Of a stretch of 64,000 nucleotides of DNA, positions 22,625-64,000 are shown one piece after another (positions within the stretch are counted from its first letter, which is position 1; every line of letters starts with the position of its first letter). A program made the translations under genes and the position numbers. The notes under the pieces were generated by a model. That model had not been told where the DNA came from. It ran no database searches and was given only the letters and a program-made list of their open reading frames with translations. The stretch is taken from the sequence record NC_070874.1. One strand, 5' to 3'. This DNA is from Escherichia phage vB_EcoP-ZQ2.

Positions 22625-25600
22625 TTGAACAGGAATCATGCTATGTCAACATTTGACCGTCTGGCAGGTTTCGCAGACAGCATCACTACTGCTAAGCAAG
22701 TCGATGTCTCTACTGCAACCTCTCGGAAACAAGCTGAACAAGGGCAAAACCCTTTCCAATTAACCCCACAGAACGCCTACCAGTTACAGGCAGGTCGTGC
22801 CGGTGATTTAGGTGCTGGTGCATTTGACCCAGGTTCTATTCAGGCAGATTTTACTAATGCCTCTCCTCTTGAAATCATAAACAAGTATGGCAATGAGCAA
22901 GGAATGGACATTCTTAATGCTCGTGTCAATGCAGCTAATGCTGTTCGTCGTGATTTAACTAAGAGTCGTACATATGGTGAAGCACTTGGTGATACCCTTT
23001 CTGGTGTTGGTCTTGGTGTTGCTAATACCCTTGGGGGCATTGCTGCTCTTGGCACAGGCTTGGTCAATGATAATGCCGGGGCATCCATTGCTTCCGGTCT
23101 TGACTGGTTGAACAAAGGTGTACACAACCTACAGTCTGATGCACTGAATGCTCGTCGTAATGTAGTACAGAACCAGAACGTAATATCTGCACAGGAAAAC
23201 GAAAAACAATATAAGCAGGATATTGATAAAGGAGAAAGTGAACTCGTTGCTTCCTTGTCTCGTATTGGTCGGGATGCTTACGATTCAGTTGCTAATACTT
23301 TGTCCAATGGCATGGCTGCTACAGATGGTATTGCTGAAGGTGTTGGTTCACTGTTTACTGGTGGTCCACTTATCCGTGGTGTATCTGCACTTGGTAAAGT
23401 AATGGTAGGTGGGGATAAAGCTGTTAAGGGTATTACCTTAGCTGCTGAATTAGGTTATCGTCCTGCACGTATTGCACAGACTGCTGGTCGTGTTGCTGCA
23501 CCTGCTATAGCAATTGGTGGTATGGAAGCTGGTGGTGCATACCAACAGACTGCTAATGAAATTATGGAAATGCCATTCAGTGAACTGGCTGCTAAATCTC
23601 CTGTATACCAACAACATATTAAAGATGGTTTAACTCCTGAAGAAGCACGACGTCAGACTGCATCTGAAACAGGTATCACTGCTGCTGGCTTAACCGCCCC
23701 AGTTGCTGCTCTCACTGGTCCACTGGTATCCAAGTTTGAACTTAACCCACTTAAGGTAGGTTCACTGGCTGGTGCTGGTTCTAACATGCTACGTGAGACT
23801 GTGGAGGAAGGTATTCAATCCGGTTTCGGTCAATTCGCACAGAACAAAGCAATTCAGGGTAACGTGGATGCTAATCGTGATTTGCTTAAAGGTGTAGGTG
23901 AACAAACTGGTCTAGGTGCATTGTATGGCTTTGGTTCTGCTGGGGTTGCTCAAGCTCCTGGTGTAACTGCTAAGACTGCCGTTGCTGCCGTTGGTCCTGC
24001 TGTACGTACTACCCTGGCTGGTGCTTCTCTGGCTGGTAAGGCACTAGCAAAAGTAGCTTCTCCTATTACTAACATTCTGGTTCAGCGTGGAGAAGAAGTT
24101 GCTAAGCGAAATGAGCAAGCATCTCCTGTATCAGACGTTACGGTTAATGCTGCTGCACAAGAAGCTACTGCTCAGGCAGAACAGGCTCAAGCAACTGTTC
24201 AGGAAGCAGTAGATGCAATGGACATTTCTCCAGAAGAGAAAGCTGCTGCTACTCAGTATGCTGCTGACTTAACTCAGGCAATGAAGTTTGACCCAGTAGA
24301 ACTGGAACAAGCTAGTCCAGCAATCCGTGAAGCTGTTTCTGGTTCCACTAACCGTGTTGAAGCTATTCAGAAGATGGCTGACCTGGTTAATACTGCCGAA
24401 GATCCTAACGTTCAAATGGAAGCTGCAATCCAGATGTATGACAACATCATGTCTATGGATAGCTTCATTAACCGTGACCCAGGTGCATTAGCTAATCTGG
24501 AACAGGGTTCTCCTGCTGCTAATATTGTTGACCAGTTCTCCGGTCTGATGGCTAACGTTCAGAATACACCGAAGGTACTTCGTGCATTCCGTGCCATCCA
24601 TTCCATGATTCAGGAACAGGCAGAAGCAGGTAAACTGAAGGCTACTGAAGAAGCTAACCAAGCCCAAGCAAACAACATTGCTATGGCTGCTGATATGTCT
24701 CCAGAAGTACTGGATGCTGATTCAGTGAACATGGTTCTGAAACACGCAAGTGAAGGTAAGATTACGCTGGGGAATCGTCAGCGTGCTGCCCTGCAATCTG
24801 CTGCTGCTCTATTGCAAGGAGCACGAGAATTTGATGCTAAAGCAGAAGAGCTAGGCTTACGTCCTCAAGACATTGTTAGTAAACAAATTAAAACCGACGA
24901 ATCTCGTTCTAATGAAGGCCAGTACTCTGCGTTGCAACATGCTAAACGCATTCGTTCTGCGTATAACTCTGGTAACTTCGATTTGGCTTCCGCTTATCTC
25001 GATGACTTTATGAAGTTCGCCCAGCACATGCAGAATAAGGTCGGAGCGTTGAATGAGCATTTGATTTCTGGGAATGCGGATAAGAATAAGTCTGTCCATT
25101 ATCAGGCTCTTACTCCCTCCCGTGAATGGGTACGTAGTCGTACTGGCCTCGGTGTTAATCCGTATGATACCAAGTCTGTTAAGTTTGCCCAGCAAGTAGG
25201 ACTGGAAGCCAAGACCGTAGCTGATATTGCTAACGCACTTGCTACGGCTTACCCGGAGCTTAATGTTTCTCATGTGAAAGTTACCTCATTGGATTCACGT
25301 CTGGACAAGCCTGCTGCCCAGGTAGTTAAAGAGTTCCGTCAGGGCAATCTTGACGCTGCTCAATCCCAACAGACTAATGAACCAGTGAATCAGGTTGATG
25401 AAACTCCTGTTACAAAACAGGAACCAGTTACCCCTACTGTACAGACTAAACCCTCTGTTAGTGAAGCTGTTAAAACAGAACCCACTATTAAAGAGTCTAA
25501 ACCACAGTCTGTAAAAGAACCTGAGAACCAGTCTGAAAAACAGGATACCGTTGATCAGTCTACTGAATCTGAAAGGGATGCTTATGTAAAAGAGAATACT

Positions 25601-28600
25601 ATTTCTCAAGATACTCTTAATAAGTATGGCGACCGTAAAGAGAGTCCATGGCTCTTTGCTGATGGTACTGTTGTTGGTTCTAATGGTGACCACATTAGCT
25701 TGTCCGATGTATTTGGACATGATGGTTATCGTGATATGTCACTAGATACAGGTGCTATTCGCTCTACCTTCTACAAAGGAAGCGAGCAACCATTTGTATC
25801 ATTGCAACTGTTTGATAATCAGAAACTGACTACTGAACAGTTCAATACTGTTCAATCATTCGTAGAAGCAAACAATGCACTGATTCAGATTGGTGTAGAT
25901 ACATCTGGGCTTAATACCAATAACGTTGAGAAAGAAGAAGTATCACTGGCTCAATTGAAAGCAGACTATACCGTTGGTGGTAAACCTCTATCTCAAATGG
26001 AAACAGTGTTCCCTGTCTATAACAATGAAAAGACACCGAACCAGTTCCTTAAAGCATTCTCTCTACCGGAAGAACCTAAGTCCCGTACCATTGGTTCTGA
26101 ATCTCCTTTGACTGATGTTAAGAAAGCACTGTCTTCTGTTGCTCGCTTTGAATCATTCACTCAAAAAGAAAATAACGCTCTCACAAGTGATGTGATTAAG
26201 CGTTACCAGGACTTATTTGATTTTGGTGAAACTCTGAAGACTACTCTGTCTGACCGTCTGGCTAAGTTCCTTGCTAACAAGAATGTTGGTAAACGTTTTG
26301 CAGAAGGTACTGAGGCTAACCGTTGGGTAGGTGGTAAATTACTTAACATCGTAGAGAAAGACGGAGATACCTTTAAGTTCAATGACCAGTTGTTAGAGAC
26401 TGCTGTACTTGCTGGTCTGCAATGGCGACTGACTGCTACACAGAATGCTGCCATTAAAGACATGCAGGATGTGGCTGCAATTACTGGTGTAAATGCTTCC
26501 TTGTTACCAGAAGGTATCCTTGCAGAGTTTGAGAATGCTCAAACCTTAGTAGAAGCTACTAACTCACTGGCTCAAAAGATTGAATCTTATTGGGGTCTTA
26601 ACCGCAATGCTGATGCACCTCTGGGCTATACCAAAGGTATCCCGATGGCAATGGCTACAGAGATTCTGTCTTCCCTTATTGAGATGGGTGAAGTTAAAGA
26701 GTCCATGTTGGATGTGTCTGAAATTGACTCAGAATCTAATAAGACCATTGGCCTGTATACCATTGAGAAGCTGGATGATACCGACGCCATTAACAAATTC
26801 CCTACTGCTATTGAGGAAGCTGTCCTCATAGAACCAGAAGAGAAACTGTACCTGGGTGATGACATTCCTTCCGTGGCTCCTACTCAGTTACGTAACCCAG
26901 CTGTTCGTAATACCCCAGAACAGAAAGCTGCTCTTAAAGCAGAACAGGCTACAGAGTTCTTTGTACATACCCCAATGGTTCAGTTCTATGAGGCGTTAGG
27001 TAAAGACCGTATCCTCGAACTGATGGGTGCTGGTACTCTGAATAAAGAATTACTTAACGAGAACCACGCTAAATCGCTGGAAGGTAAGAACCGTTCAGTA
27101 GAAGACTCTTATAACCAATTGTTCTCTGTTATTGAACAGGTAAGAGCACAGAGTGAAGACATCTCTTCTGTGCCTATTCATTATGCATACAATATGACCC
27201 GTGTCGGTCGTATGCAGATGTTAGGTAAATATACCCCCCAATCAGCTAAGCTGGTTCGTGAGGCTATCTTACCTACCAAAGCTACCCTGGATTTATCGAA
27301 CCAGAACAACGAGGACTTCTCGGGCTTCCAGCTTGGACTGGCTCAGGCATTGGGTATCAAAGTTCATAAAATGACTCGTGAAACTATGTCAGAAGAACTT
27401 ACCAAAGCTCTGGAAGGTAAGCTGAAACCTGCTGTAGATATGATGGTTGAGTTTGATAAGTCTGGATACTTACCTACTGATGCAGTGGATATCTTGAGAA
27501 CATCTCTGGGTAATGATAAGTCCTTTGTAGCTCTCATGGCTCTTATGGAGTATGCCCGTTACCTTAACAGTGATGACCGTGCCAACTTTAATACTCCTCT
27601 GTACGTTGAAGCTGATGGTGTAACCAACGGACCAATCAACGCAATGGTATTAATGACAGGTGGTAAGTTCACTCCAAACTGGATTAAGAATACTGCCAAA
27701 GGTGGTTTGTTCTTCGGTAAAGCCGGTAAGACTATGAATGAGCATCATACTCAGGATGATAGTGTTGACCTGTATGAAGCATCTACCAATAGTCTGCAAT
27801 TCCATCTGAATGAATTACGTAATACTTATAGTAAGAATATTCCTGTTATAAACCAGATGGACCATCTCCAGAAGTTAATGGACCTGTTCATCAAAGACTT
27901 CAATCTTAATGAAGATGGTACTCTGGACCTGAAACGTGGTATCGCTAAAAACCCACTAACCATTACTATCTATGGTTCTGGTGCTCGTGGTATTGCAGGC
28001 AAAATGGTAAGTGCAATTACTGATACCATCTACGAGCGTCTAAGCGACGTTCTGAAAGCCCGTGCTGCTGACCCTAACATTTCCCCAGCTATGGCGATGT
28101 TTGGTAAGGAGGCTGCGTCTGAAGCCGATGCTCAGGCTAAGCTGGATACTTTCCTTACTTCTATGAAAGAACTGACTGGCAAGATTCCAGCCAAACGTAA
28201 AGGTAGGTTATTTATTAAGGAAGTAGAAGGTGCTCTGACTGGCAAGTTAAATCCTCAGAAGTTTACCGTATCAGGGGATGCTCTGAAGAACTTACAAGAG
28301 AATATGCTGCACTTCTTTGTTGAGCCAATGAGACAAGGTATTCGGTTTACTGTTGGTGAAGGATTAATGCACTCTACTGAGAACTTGCAGAAGGCTACCC
28401 AGATTCAATCTCTGGTATTGCAGGATATGTTCCAGCAAGCAGTACAGGCTAAGCTGGCAGAAAAAGAAAAAGACCCAACATGGAAGAAAGGTGATTTCTT
28501 AACACAGAAAGAACTGAATGAAATTCAGAATAGCTTAGCTCCTCTGGCTCCAATGATTAAAACTGGTTCGCAGACTTTCTACATTGCTGGTAGTGAGAAT

Positions 28601-31600
28601 ACTGATGTTGCTAACCAAGTATTGGCTACTAACTTAGATGACCGTATGCGTGTACCAATGAGCATCTATGCTCCTTCGCAAGCAGGTGTTGCAGGTATTC
28701 CATTTATGACCATCGGTACTGGTGATGGCATGATGATGCAGACTCTTTCTACTATGAAAGGTGCTCCGAAGAATACCCTGAAAATCTTTGATGGTATGAA
28801 CATTGGTATTAATGACATTACTGATGCAAGCCGTAAAGCTAATGAGGCTGTATATACTTCCTGGCAGGGTAACCCTATCAAGAATGTATATGAGTCTTTC
28901 TCTAAGTTTGTTAAGAATGTTGATTTAAATAAGCTGTCCGATTCAGCAATAGATGCTATTGCAAAGTCTGCTTTAGACTTTGAGCAGCGTGCTCATATTG
29001 CCAGGGTAGATGGTGATAGAGATTATAAAATTTCTATGATTAGAGATTCTGGTATTGCATTAATTGAGCGTAACCTACGTAACATTGCTTTGGGTGTAGA
29101 TATTCGTCACAAGGTAATGGACCAGGTACAAGTCACTGTTGACCAGATGGCTGCTGTAGGTGCTCCTTATGTGAACAACGGTAAAATCTCTCTGGAAGGT
29201 CTGACTATAGACCAGCAAGTAGCCAAGCTGAACGAACTGTTTGATGCTGAATTAAACAAGCGTCGTGATGCAGTACGTGCTGCTAAAGCGGAACCAACGA
29301 AGGCAGAACCAGTGAAGGAAGTGCCGGTGAAAGTTGTACCAGCTATGGAGAAGGTAGGTCGTGTACTGAAGTCTGGTGTACGTCTGCTGTCTAATACTGC
29401 TATCACTAAGCTGGCTAAAGAAATGACCCCTGATCAGCAAGCAGTATTGAAAGAAATACAGAAATCCCTTGCTGCTAAAGACTATAAGGTTGTTTACGGT
29501 ACACCTTCTCAACTGGATGCTTATGCCATTGAGAAGAATATTACTCGCCCAGCACCGGAAGATATTGAAGCTGCTGAAGCTGGTAATGCATACGGCTGGA
29601 CTAACTTTGAAGATAAGACCATCTACTTAGTTACCCCTTCCTTAGAGACTCTGGTTCATGAATTAGTACATGCCTCTACTTTTGAATCTGTGCTGGCTCA
29701 CTACGAGGGTACTCCTAATGAAGCAGTCCAGAATATTGAAGACTTGATGAACCAGTTCCTTACTCTGGATGTTAAGGATGAATCTCCGGCAGTACGTGAA
29801 GCGTATGCCGATGCACTGAATACCATTAATGGTCACCTGTCTAATGGCTTCATTGAACCAGCAATGGCTAAAGCTGCTGCTCTGAATGAGTACATGGCTT
29901 GGGGTTTAACCAACCGTGAACTTATTAGTAAGCAGAAGAAAACCACTGCACTTAAAACTATGGTTCAGGCTGTATATGAAGCAATCAAACGTCTGGTATT
30001 TGGGCGTAAGAAAGCTCCAGCTAATGCAGATGATATGTTCTCAGGCTTACTGTTTAACTCTGCTGTAGTAATGCGTGGGCAGGCTCCTACTGCTGCTGTA
30101 GCTAAAGACACTACTCTGTTCCATAACAAAGCATACGGTAACAATACTCGTCTGGAAGAGTTAGGTAAGACCTTCGATAAACTAATTACTGACTACATTG
30201 GTTCAGAACCAGTACAGCAAGTAATTCGTAAAGGTAAGTTCTCTGATGCAGTAGTGAATGCAACTAAAGTAACTCGTGATGTTCAGGCTCATGGCTTCAC
30301 CATGAATATGCAGGAACAGCGTCTATTTACTAACATTGTTGCTGCACTTGCTACTGAGGCTGCTATTAACCCAGCAGCCATGGCTCGTGCACAGGAATAC
30401 TACACGCATGTTACTAAGAACTTGACCGTTGAAGCGTTCATGGCTGACCCAGATAGTACTAACCCTGCTGACCGTTACTATGCACAACAGAAGTTCGACA
30501 CCATCATGGGTGCTAACAACATTGAGTTTGATGCACAAGGTCGTTCTTCCTTACTGCCTACCTTTGTTGGTCTGGCAATGGTAAGTGAAGAGGTACGTAA
30601 GGTACTGGCTGATATTCCTGTTATGAAAGCAGATAAGAAATCAGGTAATACTGTTGACGCAATGCTGACTAACATCGGTACTGCTGCAATGGTTAGTCTG
30701 AATGCTCGTGTAGCAGGTGATACTAAAGCCACTAACGTGCGGGAAGGTATGGATGCACTGGCTCAGACAATTATGGAGACTAGCCTTAATGCACAATCTT
30801 TCTATGATTCCGTTGCTACCCCTACTGGTAATGCTATCGACCGTGCTAACCAATATCTGGTGGATTCTATTGATGTACTGTCTACTCGTACTTTGGAAGG
30901 TGCTCGTGAAGTTGCAGCTAATACCAAGAACCCACTAGTTAAAGGTGCTGCTCATGCTGCACAATTGGTAGCTGCTATTGCTACAGAGAAAAATGGTGCA
31001 ATTGTAGCTGAGGGTGTTATGGCTGCAATGAACCAGGGTAAAGTATGGCAACCGTTCCATGACCTGGTTAATGACATAATCGGTCGTACTAAGAGCAATG
31101 CTTCTGTATACGATTTGATTAAAGCAGTACGTGCACAGGTGCAAGCTGACCGTCAACAGTTCCGTGAGCATTTGCCTACCACTATCGCATCTAAGTTCAG
31201 CCGTAAGCTGACTAATGATGAGTGGAAAGCAATGCATACCGGTATGGGTAAAACTGACTTAGCTGTTCTTCGTGACACTATGTCTCTGGCTGAAATCCGT
31301 GACCTGTTGACTGACCAGAAGATTGTTGACCGTGAGGTTAATAAACTGGAAGCAGATTTGCAGAAGCAAGCCGGACGTAACTGGCCTCTGATTAGTCGTA
31401 AGTCTAAGCAACTGGCTCAGTACATGATTAATGGTACAGTCGGTAATAACCTGCTGCGTAATGCTACTGCAATTTCTCGTTTACTGGGTGAACGTAAGAC
31501 TACACGTTCTGTTGTAGATGTAGCACAACTGGATAAATTGATTACCCTGTATGCACTGGAAGCAATGAATAAGACTGACCGTGAGATGTTATCTTCACTG

Positions 31601-33460
31601 GCTCAGACAGAAATTGAAGGCATGGACTTTGCTATTTCTTACCTGGTTGGTCAGCGTAAAGATGAAATGGCTAAAGCTAAATCTGATAGCCGTGCAACCT
31701 TGAACCAGTACAAAGGGTATATTCCCGGTGAGACTAAACAGGGTGTTAATCTGATTGTTGCTGAAGATAATCAGTTTGCTGATTTGATTGAGAAATCCTA
31801 TGTACGTCTGGGTACTTATCAGGGTAGCTCTGCTAACCGTGGTCCAGCACGTAGCTACTACTTTGCACCAGTACAGGCACAGGCTCCATTCTCACAGGGT
31901 ATTCTACAGAACGTTCGTAATACTGCTGGTGGTGTAGACCTTGGTACAGGCTTTACGATGGGGACCATGGTAGCTGGTCGTATCACTGACAAACCTTCCG
32001 TAGACCGTATCACTAAAGCACTGGCTCGTGGTGAACGTGGTAATGAACCACTGCTGCCTGTATATGATACCAATGGTAATGTGGTTGCTTATGAGCAATC
32101 CATTGACCCAAGCATGCTGAAGCACATCGAGGGTGAGAACCATCTTGCTCGTGCAATCGGTGTATGGCGAGGTCGTCAGGTAGAAGAGGCTAAGGCTCAG
32201 CGTTTCAACGATATGCTGATTGAGAACCTGCATAGCATGTATGAGAACGACATTAAAATGTCTGCTTCTAATAAGTCCCAGTACGTTAACCTTCTTGGTT
32301 CTAAACTGGACCCAGTAACTGCTGATGCACTTAAGCTGATGAACAGTGAAACTCGTCAGAAAGCAGAAAGTCTGTTTGGCCCGGGTGAGCTATGGGTACG
32401 TCGTGACATGCTGAATGATGCACTAGGTTATCGTGCAGCTTCTGTTGGTGATGCCTGGTCTGGTAATTCTCGTTGGTCCCCAGAAACACTGGATACCTTC
32501 AAGAAAGCTATGCTGGGTGTCTTCGGTAACCGAGCCTATAAATATGTAATGGGTGGTGAGAACCTGGTTCAAAACTTAGTTAAAGAAGCTAAGACTCTAA
32601 TTGTAGTTAAGTCAGTAGTTGTACCTGCTGTTAACTTCCTGGCTAACCTTTACCAGATGGTTGCTCGTGGTGTACCTGTTAAGAACATTGCTAAGAGCAT
32701 TCCACAGAAGACTGCTGAGATTAATCAGTACCTGAAATCTCGCCTGCGTCAGGTAGATGCAGAAGCAGAATTACGTGCAGCTACTAACCCGAACCAGATT
32801 CGTAAACTTAAGGCTGAGATTCAATCAATCACTGATAGCCATAAACGTTTGAGTATCTGGCCTCTGTTAGAAGCTGGTGAGTTCTCTTCAATTGCAGATG
32901 CTGGTATTGGACGTGATGACATCCTGATTACTGAAGGTAAGATTCACGAATACATGGATAAGCTGGCTGATAAGCTGCCTAAGTCTGTACGTAACGCAGG
33001 TCGTTATGCACTTATCACTAAGGATACTGCTCTGTTCCAGGGTATCCAGAAGACGGTTGAGTACTCTGACTTTATCGCTAAAGCAATCATCTATGATGAA
33101 CTGACTCAGCGTAAAGGTAAGACTCGCGAAGAAGCACTGGGACGTGTAACAGAAGAGTTCATTAACTATGACCGTCTGCCAGGTCGCTTCCGTGGGTATA
33201 TGGAAAGTGTTGGTCTTATGTGGTTCTATAACTTTAAGATTCGTTCTGCAAAAGTTGCAGTATCCATGATTCGTAACAACCCAGTACATGCTGCTATGGC
33301 TATGTTGGCCCCAACCCCTACCATGTTTGGTAATGTTGGTCTGCCTATTAAGGACAACATCTTTAGTATTGCTGCACAGGGCAACCTCGGTTACTCCTTC
33401 GGATTCGGTATGGGCTTACGTGCCCATACCCTGAACCCGTGGCTCAACCTTACTAACTAA
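22625..33460 (+). CDS. virion-encapsidated giant RNA polymerase (N4 vRNAP-like)
   Basis: single 3611-aa ORF; central region with T7-like RNAP-type motifs (IYGSGARGI, FDGMNIG); position next to internal virion protein genes. Confidence 0.8.
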   Translation: MNRNHAMSTFDRLAGFADSITTAKQVDVSTATSRKQAEQGQNPFQLTPQNAYQLQAGRAGDLGAGAFDPGSIQADFTNASPLEIINKYGNEQGMDILNARVNAANAVRRDLTKSRTYGEALGDTLSGVGLGVANTLGGIAALGTGLVNDNAGASIASGLDWLNKGVHNLQSDALNARRNVVQNQNVISAQENEKQYKQDIDKGESELVASLSRIGRDAYDSVANTLSNGMAATDGIAEGVGSLFTGGPLIRGVSALGKVMVGGDKAVKGITLAAELGYRPARIAQTAGRVAAPAIAIGGMEAGGAYQQTANEIMEMPFSELAAKSPVYQQHIKDGLTPEEARRQTASETGITAAGLTAPVAALTGPLVSKFELNPLKVGSLAGAGSNMLRETVEEGIQSGFGQFAQNKAIQGNVDANRDLLKGVGEQTGLGALYGFGSAGVAQAPGVTAKTAVAAVGPAVRTTLAGASLAGKALAKVASPITNILVQRGEEVAKRNEQASPVSDVTVNAAAQEATAQAEQAQATVQEAVDAMDISPEEKAAATQYAADLTQAMKFDPVELEQASPAIREAVSGSTNRVEAIQKMADLVNTAEDPNVQMEAAIQMYDNIMSMDSFINRDPGALANLEQGSPAANIVDQFSGLMANVQNTPKVLRAFRAIHSMIQEQAEAGKLKATEEANQAQANNIAMAADMSPEVLDADSVNMVLKHASEGKITLGNRQRAALQSAAALLQGAREFDAKAEELGLRPQDIVSKQIKTDESRSNEGQYSALQHAKRIRSAYNSGNFDLASAYLDDFMKFAQHMQNKVGALNEHLISGNADKNKSVHYQALTPSREWVRSRTGLGVNPYDTKSVKFAQQVGLEAKTVADIANALATAYPELNVSHVKVTSLDSRLDKPAAQVVKEFRQGNLDAAQSQQTNEPVNQVDETPVTKQEPVTPTVQTKPSVSEAVKTEPTIKESKPQSVKEPENQSEKQDTVDQSTESERDAYVKENTISQDTLNKYGDRKESPWLFADGTVVGSNGDHISLSDVFGHDGYRDMSLDTGAIRSTFYKGSEQPFVSLQLFDNQKLTTEQFNTVQSFVEANNALIQIGVDTSGLNTNNVEKEEVSLAQLKADYTVGGKPLSQMETVFPVYNNEKTPNQFLKAFSLPEEPKSRTIGSESPLTDVKKALSSVARFESFTQKENNALTSDVIKRYQDLFDFGETLKTTLSDRLAKFLANKNVGKRFAEGTEANRWVGGKLLNIVEKDGDTFKFNDQLLETAVLAGLQWRLTATQNAAIKDMQDVAAITGVNASLLPEGILAEFENAQTLVEATNSLAQKIESYWGLNRNADAPLGYTKGIPMAMATEILSSLIEMGEVKESMLDVSEIDSESNKTIGLYTIEKLDDTDAINKFPTAIEEAVLIEPEEKLYLGDDIPSVAPTQLRNPAVRNTPEQKAALKAEQATEFFVHTPMVQFYEALGKDRILELMGAGTLNKELLNENHAKSLEGKNRSVEDSYNQLFSVIEQVRAQSEDISSVPIHYAYNMTRVGRMQMLGKYTPQSAKLVREAILPTKATLDLSNQNNEDFSGFQLGLAQALGIKVHKMTRETMSEELTKALEGKLKPAVDMMVEFDKSGYLPTDAVDILRTSLGNDKSFVALMALMEYARYLNSDDRANFNTPLYVEADGVTNGPINAMVLMTGGKFTPNWIKNTAKGGLFFGKAGKTMNEHHTQDDSVDLYEASTNSLQFHLNELRNTYSKNIPVINQMDHLQKLMDLFIKDFNLNEDGTLDLKRGIAKNPLTITIYGSGARGIAGKMVSAITDTIYERLSDVLKARAADPNISPAMAMFGKEAASEADAQAKLDTFLTSMKELTGKIPAKRKGRLFIKEVEGALTGKLNPQKFTVSGDALKNLQENMLHFFVEPMRQGIRFTVGEGLMHSTENLQKATQIQSLVLQDMFQQAVQAKLAEKEKDPTWKKGDFLTQKELNEIQNSLAPLAPMIKTGSQTFYIAGSENTDVANQVLATNLDDRMRVPMSIYAPSQAGVAGIPFMTIGTGDGMMMQTLSTMKGAPKNTLKIFDGMNIGINDITDASRKANEAVYTSWQGNPIKNVYESFSKFVKNVDLNKLSDSAIDAIAKSALDFEQRAHIARVDGDRDYKISMIRDSGIALIERNLRNIALGVDIRHKVMDQVQVTVDQMAAVGAPYVNNGKISLEGLTIDQQVAKLNELFDAELNKRRDAVRAAKAEPTKAEPVKEVPVKVVPAMEKVGRVLKSGVRLLSNTAITKLAKEMTPDQQAVLKEIQKSLAAKDYKVVYGTPSQLDAYAIEKNITRPAPEDIEAAEAGNAYGWTNFEDKTIYLVTPSLETLVHELVHASTFESVLAHYEGTPNEAVQNIEDLMNQFLTLDVKDESPAVREAYADALNTINGHLSNGFIEPAMAKAAALNEYMAWGLTNRELISKQKKTTALKTMVQAVYEAIKRLVFGRKKAPANADDMFSGLLFNSAVVMRGQAPTAAVAKDTTLFHNKAYGNNTRLEELGKTFDKLITDYIGSEPVQQVIRKGKFSDAVVNATKVTRDVQAHGFTMNMQEQRLFTNIVAALATEAAINPAAMARAQEYYTHVTKNLTVEAFMADPDSTNPADRYYAQQKFDTIMGANNIEFDAQGRSSLLPTFVGLAMVSEEVRKVLADIPVMKADKKSGNTVDAMLTNIGTAAMVSLNARVAGDTKATNVREGMDALAQTIMETSLNAQSFYDSVATPTGNAIDRANQYLVDSIDVLSTRTLEGAREVAANTKNPLVKGAAHAAQLVAAIATEKNGAIVAEGVMAAMNQGKVWQPFHDLVNDIIGRTKSNASVYDLIKAVRAQVQADRQQFREHLPTTIASKFSRKLTNDEWKAMHTGMGKTDLAVLRDTMSLAEIRDLLTDQKIVDREVNKLEADLQKQAGRNWPLISRKSKQLAQYMINGTVGNNLLRNATAISRLLGERKTTRSVVDVAQLDKLITLYALEAMNKTDREMLSSLAQTEIEGMDFAISYLVGQRKDEMAKAKSDSRATLNQYKGYIPGETKQGVNLIVAEDNQFADLIEKSYVRLGTYQGSSANRGPARSYYFAPVQAQAPFSQGILQNVRNTAGGVDLGTGFTMGTMVAGRITDKPSVDRITKALARGERGNEPLLPVYDTNGNVVAYEQSIDPSMLKHIEGENHLARAIGVWRGRQVEEAKAQRFNDMLIENLHSMYENDIKMSASNKSQYVNLLGSKLDPVTADALKLMNSETRQKAESLFGPGELWVRRDMLNDALGYRAASVGDAWSGNSRWSPETLDTFKKAMLGVFGNRAYKYVMGGENLVQNLVKEAKTLIVVKSVVVPAVNFLANLYQMVARGVPVKNIAKSIPQKTAEINQYLKSRLRQVDAEAELRAATNPNQIRKLKAEIQSITDSHKRLSIWPLLEAGEFSSIADAGIGRDDILITEGKIHEYMDKLADKLPKSVRNAGRYALITKDTALFQGIQKTVEYSDFIAKAIIYDELTQRKGKTREEALGRVTEEFINYDRLPGRFRGYMESVGLMWFYNFKIRSAKVAVSMIRNNPVHAAMAMLAPTPTMFGNVGLPIKDNIFSIAAQGNLGYSFGFGMGLRAHTLNPWLNLTN

Positions 33461-34175: not shown

Positions 34176-34556
34176 TCAGATTGTACAACCACCACCATCA
34201 CATGTATTGTTTTCTGCAAATGAAGCCAGAGCCTTAGCAGTCTCTTCTTTCTCATGCAGTGCCTGACGTAGCAGGTAACCCTCTAATTCCCAAATCTTAT
34301 TGAATGCATTTTCATATGCATACTGACGACCCTTCTGCTCATCATAGATAGCCGGGTCTACGCAGGCAGATACACCCTCAACTTTAAAGTTGTTTTCCAG
34401 AATGATTACACAATAGGTTACCAGACCCAGGTTAGCCAAATCATCTGCTGGAAGTGCAGAGGGGTCAACGAATGCAGACTTCACTGCGTCAGCACCATTA
34501 AAATAGTAGACGCTCTTAATCTTAGCTTCAATTGCTTCTTTACTTACTGTTGCCAT
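34176..34556 (-). CDS. hypothetical protein
   Basis: ORF 34176..34568; start moved to second ATG (MATVSK) which has a GAGG Shine-Dalgarno 7 nt upstream. Confidence 0.5.
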   Translation of the reverse strand: MATVSKEAIEAKIKSVYYFNGADAVKSAFVDPSALPADDLANLGLVTYCVIILENNFKVEGVSACVDPAIYDEQKGRQYAYENAFNKIWELEGYLLRQALHEKEETAKALASFAENNTCDGGGCTI

Positions 34557-34611
34557 TATTAACCTCATAGAGTGGTTTGAATTTGTACTTAAACATGATT
34601 GTGCTTATTAG

Positions 34612-34645
34612 TACTCAAATAAAAAAGTCCCTCCGAAGAGGGACT
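34612..34645 (-). terminator. rho-independent terminator (minus strand) closing the tRNA/non-coding region
   Basis: minus strand AGTCCCTC-TTCG-GAGGGACT followed by TTTTTTATTT. Confidence 0.7.
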
Positions 34646-34872
34646 TAGTAGCTTTAACGCAGCTAACGAGGCTAGGCCAGTTAACTATTACCACCGGTGC
34701 TTGTACCAGCAAACAGGATTGATAGTCCGATAATAGATAACTGTATTTGAGCATTATAGTCTACTCATACTCACACCGATAGGTATGTTTTCAATAGCTA
34801 GAGTGCCGGACTGTCTCACCGGCATTGTCTTTAGAGTGCAATGCAATCAGGACTATGTTCTCTATTAATGAG

Positions 34873-34946
34873 TACCCACTACTGGATTTGAACCAGTGAC
34901 TTTCCAATTATTAGTTGGTTGCTTTCCCCGTCTAAGCTAAGTGGGC
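34873..34946 (-). tRNA. tRNA, 74 nt, anticodon read as AAU (Ile-type, atypical A34)
   Basis: hand-folded cloverleaf: acceptor GCCCACT/AGTGGGT (one G-U), D-stem GCTT/AAGC, anticodon stem CCAA/TTGG with loop CTAATAA, T-stem ACTGG/CCAGT with loop TTCAAAT, discriminator A. Confidence 0.6.
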
Positions 34947-36031
34947 ATAATGGGTGAGTCATGCCAGACTTTAACTGGCTCCTTCTTCGCAATCCTTACA
35001 TACCCCTACATAATTATTGCGTTAAGCTTTTTTGTTTAAGTTTAAGTGAAGGCGTTCTTGCTGACTCATAATAGGGTGGGCGTTTGACGAATGACTAGTT
35101 CGTTACTACCCATTTGCCATAAGTACCTGGCGACTTCGGATAACGGGGGATGGAATCGAACCACCAGTATTAAGTCTTATTCGTGCACCAAGCACGCTAG
35201 TAGATTACTCTACCGGAGGGAATCGAACCCCATCTACTTCACCAGACCCGTCATAATTCTTACAATTCAAAGTAGCACTGCTCCATGTTTGGCCTTTGAA
35301 CTCCGGGATGGATTAGTACAATGCTACTTTGAATTAATTGCCAGGGATTCCACCTGGCTCCATCTGTTTTTATAGTCACTCAGATATCGTCTGGACTTTG
35401 ATAGCACAACCTATCAAAGAGTACACTAAGCACAGGTAGCTATCCTGCCGTCTTCTCCACCTACACCGGCTACAGTGTAGACCTCCGCACGTTAGCTTAA
35501 TGTACTCATTGATAGGATGTCATAATAGGGGAGGGAGGACGAGTCCCTCTTTACCCTATGATTTAGTTTACATGTAAGACCTAACATTTCAATGCTGGAT
35601 GAATAGCGTAATGAACTATCCGACATTAATGATTAATGTTGTGCTCAGCATGAGCGTTAGTTTGATAAGGGATCTGAAGCCTTACCCCAAAGATACTAAC
35701 CTTTGGGGTATAGCCTAAGATTCAGAAATGGCCCCCCATATAGAGAGAGGCCATTGATTAACCCGAATGTTGCTTTACATTTTCTGTGATAACCCATTCT
35801 TAAAATAGTCTGACTGACGGATGGGGGGCCACCCCTAGCGTCAGTGCCATACGGCAAAGATTAAGTTAAGAAAGGTTATGATAGGAGTTCCTATCTCAAA
35901 GGATTCTAACAGAACCCTTCACGATATTAACTACTCACTGTGAAATTCTTTGTTTCCTTCAACAGGTTCTACACCCAAGAAAAAGCTAACTTTTCACTTA
36001 GTTTAGATTGAACCAACGGACTGGGGAGAGT

Positions 36032-36529
36032 TTATCTCCCATGGCGTAAGGTGTAGTTGTGATTCTTTACCAGGTCTGCTTCTATAGTAGCCCGGTATGC
36101 TATAGCAGCATCTTTGGCTTCGCTATCCCCAAGAACACCAATGTTGAAGCTTTTAGTTCGTAGCTTACCTGTATGCGGATCATTCCAAGCAGCAGTCCAA
36201 TATTCGTTGGTCTTCTTCCATTGTCTATACACACCGGTAGTGCCTGATGTATTGTCACTTCTTTTGCGACGATTGCGACAGTTAATCATATGGGACACTA
36301 GTCTCATATTAATAAGTCGACAATCGGTTGGGATTCCATTGATGTGGTCAACTTCATACCCATCCGGGATTGGTCCATTATAGTATTCCCAAATCCAGTT
36401 GTGCAGAAATACCCTCACCCCATGACGTTTAATACGGATGTACCCATCCTTTGCATTGGCATCATCGGGAGAATGTACTACAGCGAGTTCATGGGCAGGT
36501 TTATTCCAGTATCCTAATGGCTTGCTCAT
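36032..36529 (-). CDS. HNH homing endonuclease (HNH plus AP2-like DNA-binding region)
   Basis: ...YEVDHINGIPTDCRLINMRLVSHMIN...TSGTTGVYRQ... typical free-standing phage HNH. Confidence 0.75.
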   Translation of the reverse strand: MSKPLGYWNKPAHELAVVHSPDDANAKDGYIRIKRHGVRVFLHNWIWEYYNGPIPDGYEVDHINGIPTDCRLINMRLVSHMINCRNRRKRSDNTSGTTGVYRQWKKTNEYWTAAWNDPHTGKLRTKSFNIGVLGDSEAKDAAIAYRATIEADLVKNHNYTLRHGR

Positions 36530-62438: not shown

Positions 62439-63532
62439 AGAGAACTCTTGCCCCAGTACCTGAGACAGGATGAAGCCCAGCAAGTCACTCTTAGCAATGT
62501 CAGATAGAATCTGATTGTACTGACGACGCAGGTCATTACCGTAGTTAGGATGACATCTAAAACCATTAGTTAAACGAGTCGTTAGCTCGCCCTTACCTTC
62601 CATGATTAACATGGAAGCCATACGTAGCATCTGCTTCTTTACGAGCAAGCATTGCCTCCTCAAGTGTGTCATACGTACCCAGACCAATCTGTTTACGATT
62701 GACTGTGATGTGTGCCTGGAATCTACCAGAAGGCAATATTCTTACACCATTCACTTTGCTTGATGTATTACGTGATAAACCCATATTCATCTGGTTCTGT
62801 CTACTGGTTACATTTCTCAGATTAGACCAACGGTTGTCGTTTCTAATGTGATTGATGTGATCCACCTGGTTAGGTGTTTCCCCTGTTTCCATTATCCAGA
62901 TTATTCGATGCAGTAAGTACTCTTTACGACCCAGACTAACAGATAAATAGCCTTCTTTGTGAGGATACCCCACAATTGTTCCGGCTAATCCACTAGCAGA
63001 GTCGAAACGATGAGTTACTAGCCCACTTTCTCTGTCATACCTTAAAACCTTCTTCAAAGATTCTCGGGTAATGGTATCCAAGTCTTTTATCAGGTTCTTA
63101 CAGGTAGGGCATAGGTGGCCTATTGGACTCTTTTTAGCATCATAGAAGTTGCAAACAAACTCATTAGAGCATTGCTTACAACTACAGATAGCTGTGTACT
63201 TACCAGTTTTACGTAATATTTGGGAGTTATCTAACATATGGATTCCTTAGTAATTTTGCATACAATTTCAGATTGTATCCTAACCAAGGAAGTAAGTCTC
63301 CGGTTTTCACCGGAGTATCGGACTATATCATCACCCACTAATCAGTGGGGCAAGGCGCTTGGGTGGTCACTTGACTCACCTACTCTACTCACATACGAAA
63401 TGTTTTCGATAGTCTCTGAACCTTCCCTCATGGAGGGCTTGGCTGCTGATTGGCATATCCATAGGACTTAGCTTTCCAGCAATTCACCTTGTTTTCGACA
63501 CGGATTACTCCGTGAAGGATCATTTATGTTTA
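62439..63532 (-). mobile_element. group I intron with HNH homing endonuclease ORF, inserted in the RNA polymerase gene (boundaries approximate)
   Basis: on minus strand in order: P2-like GNRA hairpin (63499..63514), P element GAATTGCTGGAAAGC (63471..63486), Q CCAATCAGCAGCC (63441..63453), R GGTTCAGAGACTA (63407..63422), P8 hairpin (63334..63349), S GATATAGTCC (63320..63329), P9 hairpin (63298..63315), then HNH ORF. Confidence 0.7.
62593..63237 (-). CDS. intron-encoded HNH homing endonuclease with N-terminal CxxC zinc-finger-like motifs
   Basis: ...YLSVSLGRKEYLLHRIIWIMETGETPNQVDHINHIRNDNRWSNLRNVTSRQNQMN...; CSCKQC and CPTC at N-terminus. Confidence 0.75.
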   Translation of the reverse strand: MLDNSQILRKTGKYTAICSCKQCSNEFVCNFYDAKKSPIGHLCPTCKNLIKDLDTITRESLKKVLRYDRESGLVTHRFDSASGLAGTIVGYPHKEGYLSVSLGRKEYLLHRIIWIMETGETPNQVDHINHIRNDNRWSNLRNVTSRQNQMNMGLSRNTSSKVNGVRILPSGRFQAHITVNRKQIGLGTYDTLEEAMLARKEADATYGFHVNHGR

Positions 63533-64000
63533 ATCATGTACAGTCATTACAGGGAATGGTTTCTTAGGCAGAGTGTCAATCATATCTGCTACTACCTTAC
63601 GGTCTACCAATGCAATGGTATTCGGGTCAAGGTAGTCCAGAATAGACAGTGACAGGAACCCAGACTTCTCATAATGACTCCAAATTTCCATAGTCATTTC
63701 CTGGTTCCCTGCGATAGCAGGATAATTGCTTGGCCCGATATCACATAGTTCACGTACATAGGCAACCAGTTTAGGGTCGAAGTTACAACGACGCAGCATC
63801 TCACGTACCACCATCCCATCAATAGAGTGAGTGATGTTAGCAGAGAGCATACGGGTCTTTTCTTCAGTACCCTGAACCATACGAGTGATGTCAAATGGTT
63901 TACCTAAGAAGTTAACAGTCTGTACTTCAGGAACCATGACCTTAATGACAGCGTGGAAGTTGTCAGGAAGTACCCATACGTAACGGTTGGCATCCGGATT
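63530..64000 (-). CDS. T7-like single-subunit RNA polymerase (N4 RNAP II large subunit-like), 5' exon, truncated by window edge
   Basis: frame open to window end; ...YVWVLPDNFHAV... and ...ITHSIDGMVVRE... resemble T7 RNAP ...HWVTPDGFPVW... and HSQDGSHLR/HDSFG regions; in-frame stop at 63530 is at the proposed 5' splice region. Confidence 0.55.
   Translation of the reverse strand, partial: NPDANRYVWVLPDNFHAVIKVMVPEVQTVNFLGKPFDITRMVQGTEEKTRMLSANITHSIDGMVVREMLRRCNFDPKLVAYVRELCDIGPSNYPAIAGNQEMTMEIWSHYEKSGFLSLSILDYLDPNTIALVDRKVVADMIDTLPKKPFPVMTVHD

What the first reader, a model, noticed from the sequence alone, without database searches (positions are those of the whole stretch)
34570..36030. 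1.46-kb non-coding hub dense in hairpins, palindromes and tRNA-like elements
Besides one tRNA, the region contains: two copies of a tRNA T-arm-like motif (GGAATCGAACC at 35152..35162 and 35217..35227) that I could not fold into cloverleaves; a perfect palindrome ACATTAAT-G-ATTAATGT (35624..35640); a nested long hairpin ATAGGG-GAGGGA...TCCCTC-CCCTAT (35524..35560); hairpin CCCCAAAG-ATACTAAC-CTTTGGGG (35686..35709); inverted repeat AATGGCC...GGCCATT (35729..35756); and hairpin CTGACG-GATGGGGGGCCACCCCTAG-CGTCAG (35811..35848). It lies at the boundary between early/middle and late modules. Candidates are intron-containing or degenerate tRNA genes, a structured ncRNA, an origin of replication, or a regulatory site.
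Basis: seen in the sequence. Interest (0 to 1): 0.6.

Follow-up and report, generated by a model that had tools for sequence, protein, structure and literature searches.

The report
Phage array of tRNA-like RNA genes
The "non-coding hub" is the small-RNA gene cluster of an N4-like coliphage: one tRNA plus several conserved, folded RNAs absent from the RNA-family library, some shared with unrelated phages, and their function is unknown.

Summary
The window is a G7C-group N4-like phage. The region is the gp47-gp48 gap, where N4 and KP8 keep their tRNA genes.

Read on the minus strand it is an array of RNA modules ending in an intrinsic terminator (34646..34625). Software finds only tRNA-Ile(AAU).

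The two "T-arm" motifs are two T-loop hairpins inside one 113-nt tRNA-like RNA, element B (35253..35141). B has a 7-bp acceptor stem and five helices; 13 of 26 pairs show compensatory changes. It also sits in the tRNA clusters of T4-like phages.

Next to it lies element D (35398..35335), a 62-nt two-hairpin RNA. D occurs in 102 GenBank phage records and at least 120 IMG/VR contigs, including N4, 9NA and the early-left leaders of lambdoid prophages. It has no Rfam family.

Elements M7 and E2 also show covariation. Element F rests on a two-sequence alignment only.

A replication origin and intron-containing tRNAs are not supported.

Best reading: a tRNA-punctuated precursor that yields stable structured RNAs. 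Transcription, processing and function are all inferred, not shown.

The parts
34625..34646 (-). Intrinsic terminator that closes the RNA array (9-bp GC-rich stem, UUCG loop, U tract), just upstream of gp48
   Evidence: Relatives annotate a terminator in this locus: Jura places one just upstream of its gp48 homologue, and PhAPEC5 and G7C list one under the match. N4 has an equivalent hairpin followed by a T run at L146:3279-3308.
34799..34864 (-). Element E2: closing stem plus a 6-bp hairpin with a conserved 9-nt loop UGAGACAGU. Conserved from G7C-like phages to N4 and KP8.
   Evidence: 8 of 10 pairs carry compensatory changes, 98.8% of cells are paired, and 0/500 shuffles reach the covariation score (17/500 for further pair types).
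34872..34946 (-). Canonical tRNA, anticodon AAU (Ile)
   Evidence: ARAGORN; Rfam tRNA 62 bits. In pSb-1 and HK2 the same acceptor and T arm carry a longer, non-canonical middle, and ARAGORN no longer calls a tRNA.
35140..35253 (-). Element B: a 113-nt tRNA-like RNA. It has a 7-bp acceptor stem, hairpin H1 with a T-loop (UUCGAUU), hairpins H2 and H3 (H3 loop UUGGU), and a canonical T arm.
   Evidence: 13 of 26 pairs are compensatory, 97.9% of cells are paired, 0/500 shuffles. The covariance model finds it at 110-137 bits only in this window, KP8 and the T4-like phages VR5, PEi26 and CkP1. G7C-like relatives carry it at 92-97% identity.
35256..35336 (-). Element C: a long imperfect hairpin with 17-nt arms
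   Evidence: minus strand -28.9 kcal/mol, z = -5.7; I3. Present in relatives. Comparative support is modest.
35335..35421 (-). Element D. The core is 35398..35335: stem AGYC/GRCU around the hairpin CAGA-CGAUA-UCUG, an invariant A-rich linker UUUAAAAACAGAUGG, and a hairpin with the T-loop-like loop UGGAAKC. In N4-like phages a small hairpin, 35421..35399, precedes the core.
   Evidence: 92% of cells paired, 38 double-change cells, 0/500 shuffles; nearly all non-Watson-Crick pairs are G-U in this orientation. Found in 102 GenBank phage records, at least 120 IMG/VR contigs and 15 of 5426 E. coli genomes. No Rfam family.
35410..35516 (-). Element M7: a 21-bp closing stem that encloses two hairpins and conserved junction strands
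   Evidence: z = -5.5; I1. Four compensatory pairs against phage Pollock. There are five or more U-G pairs on the minus strand.
35528..35640 (-). It is homologous to an intergenic element of Kuravirus-like phages.
   Evidence: 75% identity to Bas88, and the nested hairpin is kept through sequence change. The fold as a whole is not significant (z = -1.3).
35641..35759 (-).
   Evidence: -50.9 kcal/mol, z = -6.0; 10 kcal/mol better on the minus strand than on the plus strand. Comparative support is weak.
35782..35886 (+). It folds better as the plus strand.
   Evidence: plus strand -50.6 (z = -6.4) against minus strand -35.4 (z = -2.6). The plus strand is also better in all 10 relatives, by about 7-13 kcal/mol. 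The strand assignment is unresolved.
35903..35930 (-). Weak sigma-70-like promoter match (TTAATA-16-TGnTAGAAT) upstream of most of the array
   Evidence: 9 of 12 matches. The region has no more such matches than shuffled sequence, so this is only a lead.
36032..36529 (-). Free-standing HNH_3 + AP2 homing-endonuclease gene bordering the array (context, not part of the RNA array)
   Evidence: HNH_3 E = 3.5e-17. It is an insertion relative to Bp4 and ECBP1. G7C has one at the same place.

Best explanation
The region is the small-RNA gene array of a G7C-group N4-like phage. It occupies the gp47-gp48 gap, where N4, KP8 and their relatives carry their tRNA genes.

It is read on the minus strand, like the flanking genes, and ends at the intrinsic terminator 34646..34625. 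Besides one canonical tRNA-Ile(AAU) it encodes a series of separately folded RNAs:
- M7, a closed three-way structure;
- D, a 62-nt two-hairpin element with a T-loop-like loop;
- C, a long hairpin;
- B, a 113-nt tRNA-like RNA with an acceptor stem, two T-loop hairpins and two conserved GG loops, so probably two tRNA-type 'elbows' (inferred);
- E2.

Proposed mechanism (inferred). The array is made as one untranslated precursor. Host tRNA-processing enzymes, chiefly RNase P, cut at the tRNA and tRNA-like units. Double-strand or single-strand RNases cut at the long hairpins. Stable small RNAs are released.

The tRNA-shaped units appear to be kept for their shape rather than for decoding. They could serve as processing punctuation or as mimics that bind host tRNA-recognising factors. 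Element D is most likely a host-factor-binding leader or small-RNA module.

Shown here: the structures, their strand, their conservation and their spread across phages. Inferred: transcription, processing and function.
For: Locus identity. The 3611-aa vRNAP and the gp45-49 order are present. The best matches are Gamaleyavirus phages. N4 has tRNA-Asn, Ser, Thr and Pro in the same gap, and KP8 has six tRNA genes there.

Strand. The tRNA, the terminator and the flanking genes are all on the minus strand. Minus-strand folds are 3-10 kcal/mol better for H, M7, C, B and E2. Non-Watson-Crick pairs in B, D and M7 are almost all G-U in the minus-strand sense.

Structure.
- B: 13 of 26 pairs compensatory.
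- D: 5 pairs, 38 cells.
- M7: 4 pairs.
- E2: 8 of 10 pairs.
- In every case 0/500 shuffles reach the covariation score, and slid-partner controls fall to 15-62% paired.

Association with tRNA clusters in other phage families.
- B lies directly after tRNA-Met in VR5 and PEi26, and in the tRNA region of CkP1.
- M7 lies downstream of a four-tRNA cluster in Pollock.
- D and F lie downstream of tRNA-Arg in Kuravirus-like phages.
- In N4 and KP8, D is followed directly by a 66-nt tRNA-like gene; the N4 copy has an encoded ACCA end.

Shape over decoding.
- pSb-1 and HK2 have no detectable tRNA in the locus, yet keep G, H, F, M7, D, C, B and E2 at 76-100% identity.
- Their 'tRNA-Ile' keeps the acceptor and T arm but has a non-canonical middle.
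- Canonical tRNAs come and go as precise cassettes. tRNA-Ala sits exactly at the position matching window 35522 in Bp4. tRNA-Ile is precisely absent in St11Ph5.
Against: - No expression data were available. No convincing promoter was found; promoter-like matches are no more frequent than in shuffled sequence, and none was found in the N4 gap.
- Element G folds much better on the plus strand. This does not fit a purely minus-strand array.
- MFE folds of G, H, F, S1 (35890-36031) and S9 (34995-35140) have many pairs broken in relatives.
- Several alignments are small and dominated by close relatives: 6 sequences for M7, 8 for E2, 13 for B.
- The D hits were partly collected with a fixed sequence pattern. 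This removes variation in its first stem.
- G-T pairs also form in single-stranded DNA, so a DNA-level role on the same strand is not strictly excluded.
Confidence: 0.7

Rival explanations
1. Cis-acting regulatory leader. The array, and element D in particular, acts on the transcribing polymerase or on Rho, like a processive antiterminator. This would let long untranslated RNA be made and the terminator before gp48-gp49 be read through. It overlaps with the best explanation for element D.
For: In lambdoid prophages D sits once per locus in the roughly 640-nt untranslated leader between the cI-like repressor/pL and the first early-left gene (rdgC). No N-like gene is present there. HK022 putL and the HK639 putL-like RNA occupy the same kind of position. 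D is about 62 nt with two hairpins and invariant unpaired bases, and it is confined to Enterobacterales phages. In the window a strong terminator follows the array, before gp48.
Against: No sequence or model similarity to HK022 put or to the HK639 putL-like RNA. No strong intrinsic terminators were found downstream in the prophage operon examined. N4 middle genes are transcribed by a phage RNA polymerase (established knowledge), on which a put-like mechanism would not act. In N4-like phages D is flanked by tRNA-like genes, which would cut it out of the transcript.
Confidence: 0.2
2. Graveyard of decaying tRNA genes and recombination scars. On this view the T-arm motifs and hairpins are remnants with no present function.
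For: Relatives carry extra tRNAs that this phage lacks, and the locus is a mosaic of indels. ARAGORN gives tRNA-like calls only at lowered thresholds. An adjacent homing endonuclease could drive turnover. Several hairpins lack comparative support.
Against: B, D, M7 and E2 keep their pairing through compensatory changes across genera and families. D is 95-100% identical across the G7C-like relatives fetched here. It is 92.5% identical in N4 itself and 85-97% in unrelated phages. In pSb-1 and HK2 no canonical tRNA is detectable, yet the non-canonical modules persist.
Confidence: 0.08
3. A DNA-level element: a replication origin, or hairpins used in single-stranded or supercoiled DNA.
For: Inverted repeats are dense. 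The location is near the junction of the two transcription blocks. N4 biology does use DNA hairpins as vRNAP promoters (established knowledge). Element G prefers the other strand.
Against: The cumulative GC skew has no turning point in the region; the turn is at about 33.2 kb, the strand switch at the vRNAP 3' end. There are no iterons; the only direct repeats are the T-loop motif and short two-copy matches. DnaA boxes were not searched for. The modules recur in T4-like, Kuravirus-like, 9NA-like and lambdoid phages, which replicate differently. They are always co-oriented with the neighbouring genes. The acceptor/T-arm architecture is RNA-specific.
Confidence: 0.04
4. One large 'ornate' non-coding RNA, functionally like GOLLD or ROOL, which are phage-borne and associated with tRNAs, rather than separate small RNAs.
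For: About 1.4 kb is untranslated, very structured and next to or interleaved with tRNAs in a phage. There are long-range complementarities, for example an 11-nt perfect match between 35729-39 and 35821-31.
Against: No Rfam match to GOLLD, ROOL or any large RNA. Modules occur independently in different phages and are gained or lost singly.
Confidence: 0.05

Closest known systems
Phage T4 tRNA gene cluster with its small stable RNAs, species 1 and species 2 (rnaC, rnaD)
   Same: Both are untranslated, co-oriented arrays of tRNAs plus extra stable RNAs of unknown function, next to a homing-endonuclease gene (segB in T4, HNH here) and ending in a terminator. Element B itself lies inside the tRNA clusters of T4-like phages VR5, PEi26 and CkP1. 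rnaC and B share a 'CUUAAUA - T arm - 1 nt - 3' acceptor strand' end (read by eye).
   Different: The covariance model of B does not detect rnaC or rnaD. No homology is shown, and the architecture and length differ (113 nt against 139 and 119 nt).
tRNA gene cluster of N4-like phages (N4, KP8)
   Same: Same locus (the gp47-gp48 gap), same strand, same closing terminator. Elements D and E2 are shared.
   Different: This phage keeps only one canonical tRNA. The published descriptions read here mention only tRNAs; the KP8 paper lists two of its six as unidentified. GenBank annotations label the non-tRNA modules at most as 'tRNA-OTHER', 'Undet' or spurious small ORFs.
HK022 put and HK639 putL-like antiterminator RNAs
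   Same: For element D in prophages: a roughly 60-70-nt, two-stem-loop RNA in the early-left leader of lambdoid phages that lack an N-type gene at that position.
   Different: No sequence or profile similarity. D is single-copy. It also lies in tRNA arrays of lytic phages. Activity is untested.
tRNA-like structures used as processing signals or mimics (bacterial Y-RNA-like YrlA, MALAT1 mascRNA, gammaherpesvirus tRNA-miRNA units)
   Same: An acceptor/T-arm module without a decoding anticodon arm, expected to be handled by RNase P (established knowledge for those systems).
   Different: Rfam YrlA does not match above noise. B has two T-loop hairpins, which I do not know from those RNAs (from memory, not tested).
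GOLLD and ROOL large RNAs
   Same: Phage or prophage-borne, highly structured, found next to tRNA genes (established knowledge).
   Different: No Rfam match. Different hosts. Here the modules are separable.

Membership tests
Canonical tRNA (for the T-arm repeats, element B) | Cloverleaf with a D arm and a 7-nt anticodon loop, detected by tRNA software | tested here: not met
   ARAGORN in default and intron modes finds only tRNA-Ile. The best Rfam clan hit is tRNA-Sec at 16.6 bits against a gathering score of 47. H3 has a 5-nt loop closed by a covarying pair.
Canonical tRNA (for the T-arm repeats, element B) | 7-bp acceptor stem stacked on a 5-bp T stem with a UUCRANY loop | tested here: met
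   Acceptor: 5 of 7 pairs compensatory. The T arm is 100% paired, with loop UUCGAUU.
Intron-containing tRNA | A tRNA interrupted by an intron (group I in bacteria and phages) | tested here: not met
   No intron family hit in 34400-36200 at E <= 10. ARAGORN -i finds nothing at its default threshold and makes only a forced call at 85%.
T4 species 1 / species 2 RNA (rnaC / rnaD) | Sequence and structure homology to T4 rnaC or rnaD | tested here: not met
   Model R1 hits only tRNAs in the T4 locus, not 2409-2672. MAFFT alignment shows only a shared 3' motif.
T4 species 1 / species 2 RNA (rnaC / rnaD) | Non-tRNA stable RNA gene embedded in and co-oriented with a phage tRNA cluster | tested here: met
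   Location was tested (for B; this window). RNA stability was not testable.
put-type processive antiterminator RNA (for element D) | Similarity to HK022 putL/putR or to the HK639 putL-like RNA | tested here: not met
   nhmmer and the covariance model find no D-like sequence in the HK022 and HK639 immunity regions. The annotated HK639 putL-like sequence is unrelated.
put-type processive antiterminator RNA (for element D) | Lies in the early operon leader downstream of pL, in cis | tested here: met
   E. coli prophage L145: terminator, then operator/promoter-like sequence, then the leader with D at 6001-6062, then rdgC. The same order is seen in Kp4882-3. In N4-like phages this context does not apply.
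put-type processive antiterminator RNA (for element D) | Makes E. coli RNA polymerase resistant to terminators | not testable with these tools
   Needs a reporter or in vitro transcription assay.
Replication origin | GC-skew turning point, iterons or initiator boxes, an AT-rich unwinding stretch | tested here: not met
   No skew turn in the region, and GC is flat at 0.40-0.44. No repeated iteron family. DnaA boxes were not searched for.
Any described RNA family (Rfam 15) | A match at or near the gathering score | tested here: not met
   Only tRNA reaches its gathering score in the region, and all other hits fall far below theirs. The same holds for 14 loci that carry D and for the N4 gap.
Intrinsic terminator (end of array) | GC-rich hairpin followed by a U tract on the transcribed strand | tested here: met
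   34646..34625: 9 pairs, loop UUCG, tail UUUUUAUUU.

The most novel reading that the evidence does not exclude
The phage tRNA locus is really a toolbox of tRNA-shape mimics and host-factor-binding RNAs.

Element B would be a 'double-elbow' tRNA mimic: two T-loops, each docked to a conserved GG loop. It would titrate or decoy a host factor that recognises the tRNA elbow, for example a tRNA-targeting defence nuclease or a tRNA-processing or modifying enzyme.

Element D would be a new class of host-directed RNA, for example an anti-Rho or antitermination module, or a stable small RNA. It would be shared by hundreds of lytic and temperate Enterobacterales phages.
Probability: 0.2. Interest if true: 0.85.

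Novelty: new variant of a known kind. Interest (0 to 1): 0.6.

Why it matters
Phage tRNA clusters are usually explained by codon supply or by escape from tRNA-cleaving defences.

In this locus the conserved core appears not to be the decoding tRNAs. Those come and go; two close relatives have none that ARAGORN detects. What persists is a set of folded RNAs with no Rfam family.

One of these, B, is shared between N4-like and T4-like phages. Another, D, is shared by over a hundred sequenced phages and prophages, including the classic phages N4 and 9NA, and had no annotation in any of the records inspected.

If these RNAs are expressed and stable, they give defined, easily deletable candidates for new phage-host RNA interactions in well-studied model systems. 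They would also be new families for RNA databases and genome annotation. At present they are called 'hypothetical protein', 'tRNA-OTHER' or nothing.

Tried and rejected
- **ARAGORN with introns, mitochondrial mode, tmRNA mode and lowered thresholds.** Only forced, non-credible calls over B and M7.
- **Rfam at E <= 10 on the region and sub-regions, on 14 D-bearing loci and on the N4 gap.** Nothing beyond tRNAs.
- **Homology of B to T4 rnaC/rnaD.** Suggested by position and a shared 3' motif. Rejected by the covariance-model search.
- **D as HK022 put or HK639 putL-like RNA.** Rejected at sequence and profile level.
- **D as a nutL/nutR-type pair.** Only one copy per locus.
- **D as a small coding gene.** An AUG-led ORF exists, but its frame, length and sequence are not conserved, and the first stem, which covaries, lies upstream of the AUG (read by eye).
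- **Similarity of D to the rrn leader boxA/boxC.** Noticed from memory only, weak, and not pursued.
- **Literature search for the D core sequence.** No paper. General searches gave only the KP8 genome paper, which notes six tRNAs at this locus.
- **Genome-contig scan with a loose D pattern.** Mostly chance matches. Only 8 true D copies were recognised afterwards; four of these loci have titles shown and are from Kosakonia, Pantoea (two) and Atlantibacter. The scan was wasted as a census.
- **'Klebsiella T7-like phages' carrying D.** These turned out to be temperate lambdoid genomes.
- **Origin of replication.** See the rival explanations.
Full report
**1. What the window is**

A 3611-aa ORF (22625..33460, +) is the giant virion RNA polymerase of N4-like phages. 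The neighbouring minus-strand ORFs are in the order gp49, gp48, (gap), HNH, gp47, gp46. The gp48 ORF (34176..34568) matches Pfam Phage_gp49_66, and the 36032..36529 ORF matches HNH_3 + AP2.

Megablast of 34400-36200 finds 87 phage records. Those whose taxonomy was inspected are Gamaleyavirus (G7C group). The best are HK2 and PW8, with 91% of the query covered at 91-93% identity.

The finding is therefore the gap between gp48 and an inserted homing-endonuclease gene, on the strand of the gp45-gp49 block.

**2. The observation**

ARAGORN and Rfam call only tRNA-Ile(AAU) at 34872..34946 (-). No ORF of 100 aa or more lies inside the region.

Against dinucleotide shuffles, four sub-regions fold far better than chance:
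- 35641-35759, z = -6.0;
- 35404-35527, z = -5.5;
- 35256-35336, z = -5.7;
- 35760-35889, z = -6.4, on the plus strand.

Three do not: 35528-35640, 35890-36031 and 34995-35140.

**3. The locus in relatives**

N4 has a 1.5-kb unannotated gap between gp47 and gp48. ARAGORN finds tRNA-Asn, Ser, Thr and Pro in it. KP8 has six annotated tRNA genes there, two of them 'tRNA-OTHER'.

G7C-group relatives are a mosaic.
- Bp4 and ECBP1 carry a tRNA-Ala(CGC) inserted exactly at the point matching window 35522.
- They also carry a tRNA-Cys(ACA)-like gene between the points matching 35397 and 35408.
- Most relatives have a 66-nt 'tRNA-Undet' directly after element D.
- St11Ph5 lacks tRNA-Ile precisely.

pSb-1 and HK2 have no tRNA that ARAGORN can call anywhere in the locus. 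Their 'tRNA-Ile' keeps the acceptor stem and T arm but has a longer, non-canonical middle. Yet they retain the other modules at 76-100% identity.

A strong intrinsic terminator closes the array at 34646..34625 (-). N4 has an equivalent terminator-like hairpin and Jura annotates one at the same place.

**4. The T-arm repeats: element B**

The two GGTTCGATTCC motifs (minus-strand sense) are the loops of two hairpins inside one RNA, 35253..35141.

Homologues exist in:
- G7C-group phages;
- KP8;
- T4-like phages of three genera. In VR5 and PEi26 the element lies directly downstream of tRNA-Met, in the orientation of the tRNA genes. In CkP1 it lies in the tRNA region.

A 13-sequence alignment supports five helices:
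- a 7-bp acceptor stem;
- H1, 4 bp, loop UUCGAUU;
- H2, 5 bp, variable loop;
- H3, 5 bp, loop UUGGU;
- a canonical T arm.

Of the 26 pairs, 13 show compensatory changes and 97.9% of cells are paired. No shuffle of 500 reaches the observed values. Sliding the partners drops pairing to 41-62%.

Two GG dinucleotides are invariant, one in the 5' linker (UGGU) and one in the H3 loop. The bases that define both T-loops are invariant too. This suggests two tRNA-type elbow contacts. That is an inference; it was not tested.

B is not a cloverleaf tRNA. A covariance model built from it scores 110-137 bits on the family members searched (this window, KP8 and three T4-like phages). It scores 21 bits or less elsewhere, and the weak hits whose coordinates were checked are ordinary tRNAs. 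It does not detect T4 rnaC or rnaD. B resembles those T4 RNAs in kind, but no homology is shown.

**5. Element D**

D is at 35398..35335. It is 95-100% identical across the G7C-like relatives fetched here.

Distribution:
- 92.5% identical in N4 itself;
- 102 GenBank phage records, including KP8, Kuravirus-like phages, Salmonella 9NA and Klebsiella SopranoGao;
- 15 of 5426 complete E. coli genomes;
- prophage-like regions of Kosakonia, Pantoea and Atlantibacter.

A 57-sequence alignment supports:
- stem AGYC/GRCU around the hairpin CAGA-CGAUA-UCUG;
- an invariant A-rich linker;
- a 5-6-bp hairpin with loop UGGAAKC, a T-loop-like U...A pentad.

Compensatory changes occur at five pairs. Nearly all non-Watson-Crick pairs are G-U in the minus-strand sense.

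Context. D was intergenic and co-oriented with the neighbouring genes in the loci inspected.
- In lambdoid prophages it lies once per locus, in the roughly 640-nt untranslated leader between the cI-like repressor/pL and the first early-left gene, often rdgC. No N-type gene is there.
- In N4, KP8 and most G7C-like phages a small tRNA-like gene follows it directly; the N4 copy has an encoded ACCA end.

D has no Rfam family. It has no similarity to HK022 put or to the HK639 putL-like RNA. No paper in the library contains its core sequence.

**6. Other modules**

- **M7 (35516..35410).** A 21-bp closing stem around two hairpins. Its only distant homologue found is in phage Pollock, a different N4-like subfamily, downstream of that phage's four-tRNA cluster. 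There are four compensatory pairs and several one-sided changes that keep pairing. It has many U-G pairs that would be A-C mismatches on the plus strand.
- **E2 (34864..34799).** Shared with N4, Jura, KP8 and two N4-like metagenomic contigs. Eight of its 10 pairs are compensatory.
- **F (35640..35528).** About 75% identical to an intergenic element of the Kuravirus-like phages Bas88 and XT18.
- **C and H.** Strong minus-strand hairpins with only modest comparative support.
- **G (35782..35886).** The exception. It folds about 7-15 kcal/mol better as plus strand in the window and in ten relatives. I cannot explain this.

**7. Interpretation**

The consistent picture is an untranslated minus-strand array of separately folded RNAs, interleaved with tRNA or tRNA-like units and closed by a terminator.

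The same families recur beside tRNA clusters in T4-like, Pollock-like and Kuravirus-like phages. Canonical tRNAs are the dispensable part. The tRNA-shaped but non-decoding units persist.

I therefore favour a 'punctuated precursor' model. RNase P and other host RNases would cut at the tRNA-like units and long hairpins and release stable RNAs. The roles of those RNAs would depend on shape or on host-factor binding rather than on decoding.

For D, a host-directed cis role (anti-termination or anti-Rho) is a serious alternative because of its place in prophage early leaders. It failed the only membership tests I could run.

**8. What is not supported**

- A replication origin: no skew turn and no iterons.
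- Intron-containing tRNAs.
- A tRNA graveyard: contradicted by covariation and by cross-family conservation.

**9. Limits**

- No expression data were available, and no convincing promoter was found.
- Several alignments are small.
- The D set was partly gathered with a fixed pattern.
- Single-stranded DNA hairpins on the same strand cannot be formally excluded.
- Function is unknown for every non-tRNA module.

**10. Verdict**

The locus type is known: phage tRNA clusters with extra stable RNAs, as in T4. The RNA families themselves have no Rfam family and no annotation in the records inspected, and one of them is widespread. Interest 0.6.

Noticed in passing
window 63298-63541 (-): Rfam group I catalytic intron match, 91.8 bits (E = 3e-22), elsewhere in the window.
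   Followed up: no
window 34872-34946 (-); L002, L003, L001: The phage tRNAs at this locus have unusual A34 anticodons: Ile AAU here and in all G7C-like relatives, and Cys ACA in Bp4 and ECBP1. In pSb-1 and HK2 the 'Ile' gene keeps the acceptor and T arms but has a longer, non-canonical anticodon region.
   Followed up: partly
window 35782-35886: Element G folds about 7-15 kcal/mol better as plus strand than as minus strand, in the window and in ten relatives. This is opposite to every other module. A weak TTGATT-16-TACATT promoter-like sequence lies just upstream on the plus strand (read by eye). It could be an antisense RNA.
   Followed up: partly
window 35066-35076 and 35520-35530: Exact 11-nt direct repeat TCATAATAGGG. 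The second copy sits at the point where relatives carry a tRNA-Ala cassette. It may be a recombination or processing junction.
   Followed up: no
window 35729-35739 and 35821-35831: 11-nt perfect complementarity (TGGCCCCCCAT / ATGGGGGGCCA) between the tips of two different hairpin modules. This could be a long-range or alternative pairing.
   Followed up: no
window 36032-36529 (-): Free-standing HNH_3 + AP2 homing-endonuclease gene inserted beside the RNA array. It is absent from Bp4 and ECBP1 and present in G7C. It parallels segB inside the T4 tRNA cluster.
   Followed up: partly
L145:5515-6160 (E. coli prophage) and many IMG/VR loci: The early-left leaders that carry element D are about 640 nt of untranslated, hairpin-rich RNA. 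They have repeated long hairpins based on ACACAAC...GTTGTGT and a GGAAGNAGACGGC motif just upstream of D, which resembles a junction strand of M7.
   Followed up: partly
L146:2570-2745 (phage N4): N4 has unannotated RNA genes in its gp47-gp48 gap: a 66-nt tRNA-like gene, without an evident D arm, with an encoded ACCA end right after D, and a second RNA with an 11-bp closing stem and a T arm.
   Followed up: partly
L019:2375-2393 and L018:2263-2282: At the end of the T4 and VR5 tRNA operons, just before the terminator, lies a hairpin GCAGGUGGAACCCCGAC. It weakly resembles the T-loop-like hairpin of D (nhmmer E about 1) and is probably chance.
   Followed up: partly
L022:1925-2128 (Salmonella phage 9NA): In 9NA, element D lies in a 200-nt gap between two structural-module genes. 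A good promoter-like sequence (TTGACT-17-TATTGT) precedes it, and a hairpin that sequesters a perfect Shine-Dalgarno sequence and a terminator-like hairpin follow. It may be a separate small transcription unit.
   Followed up: no
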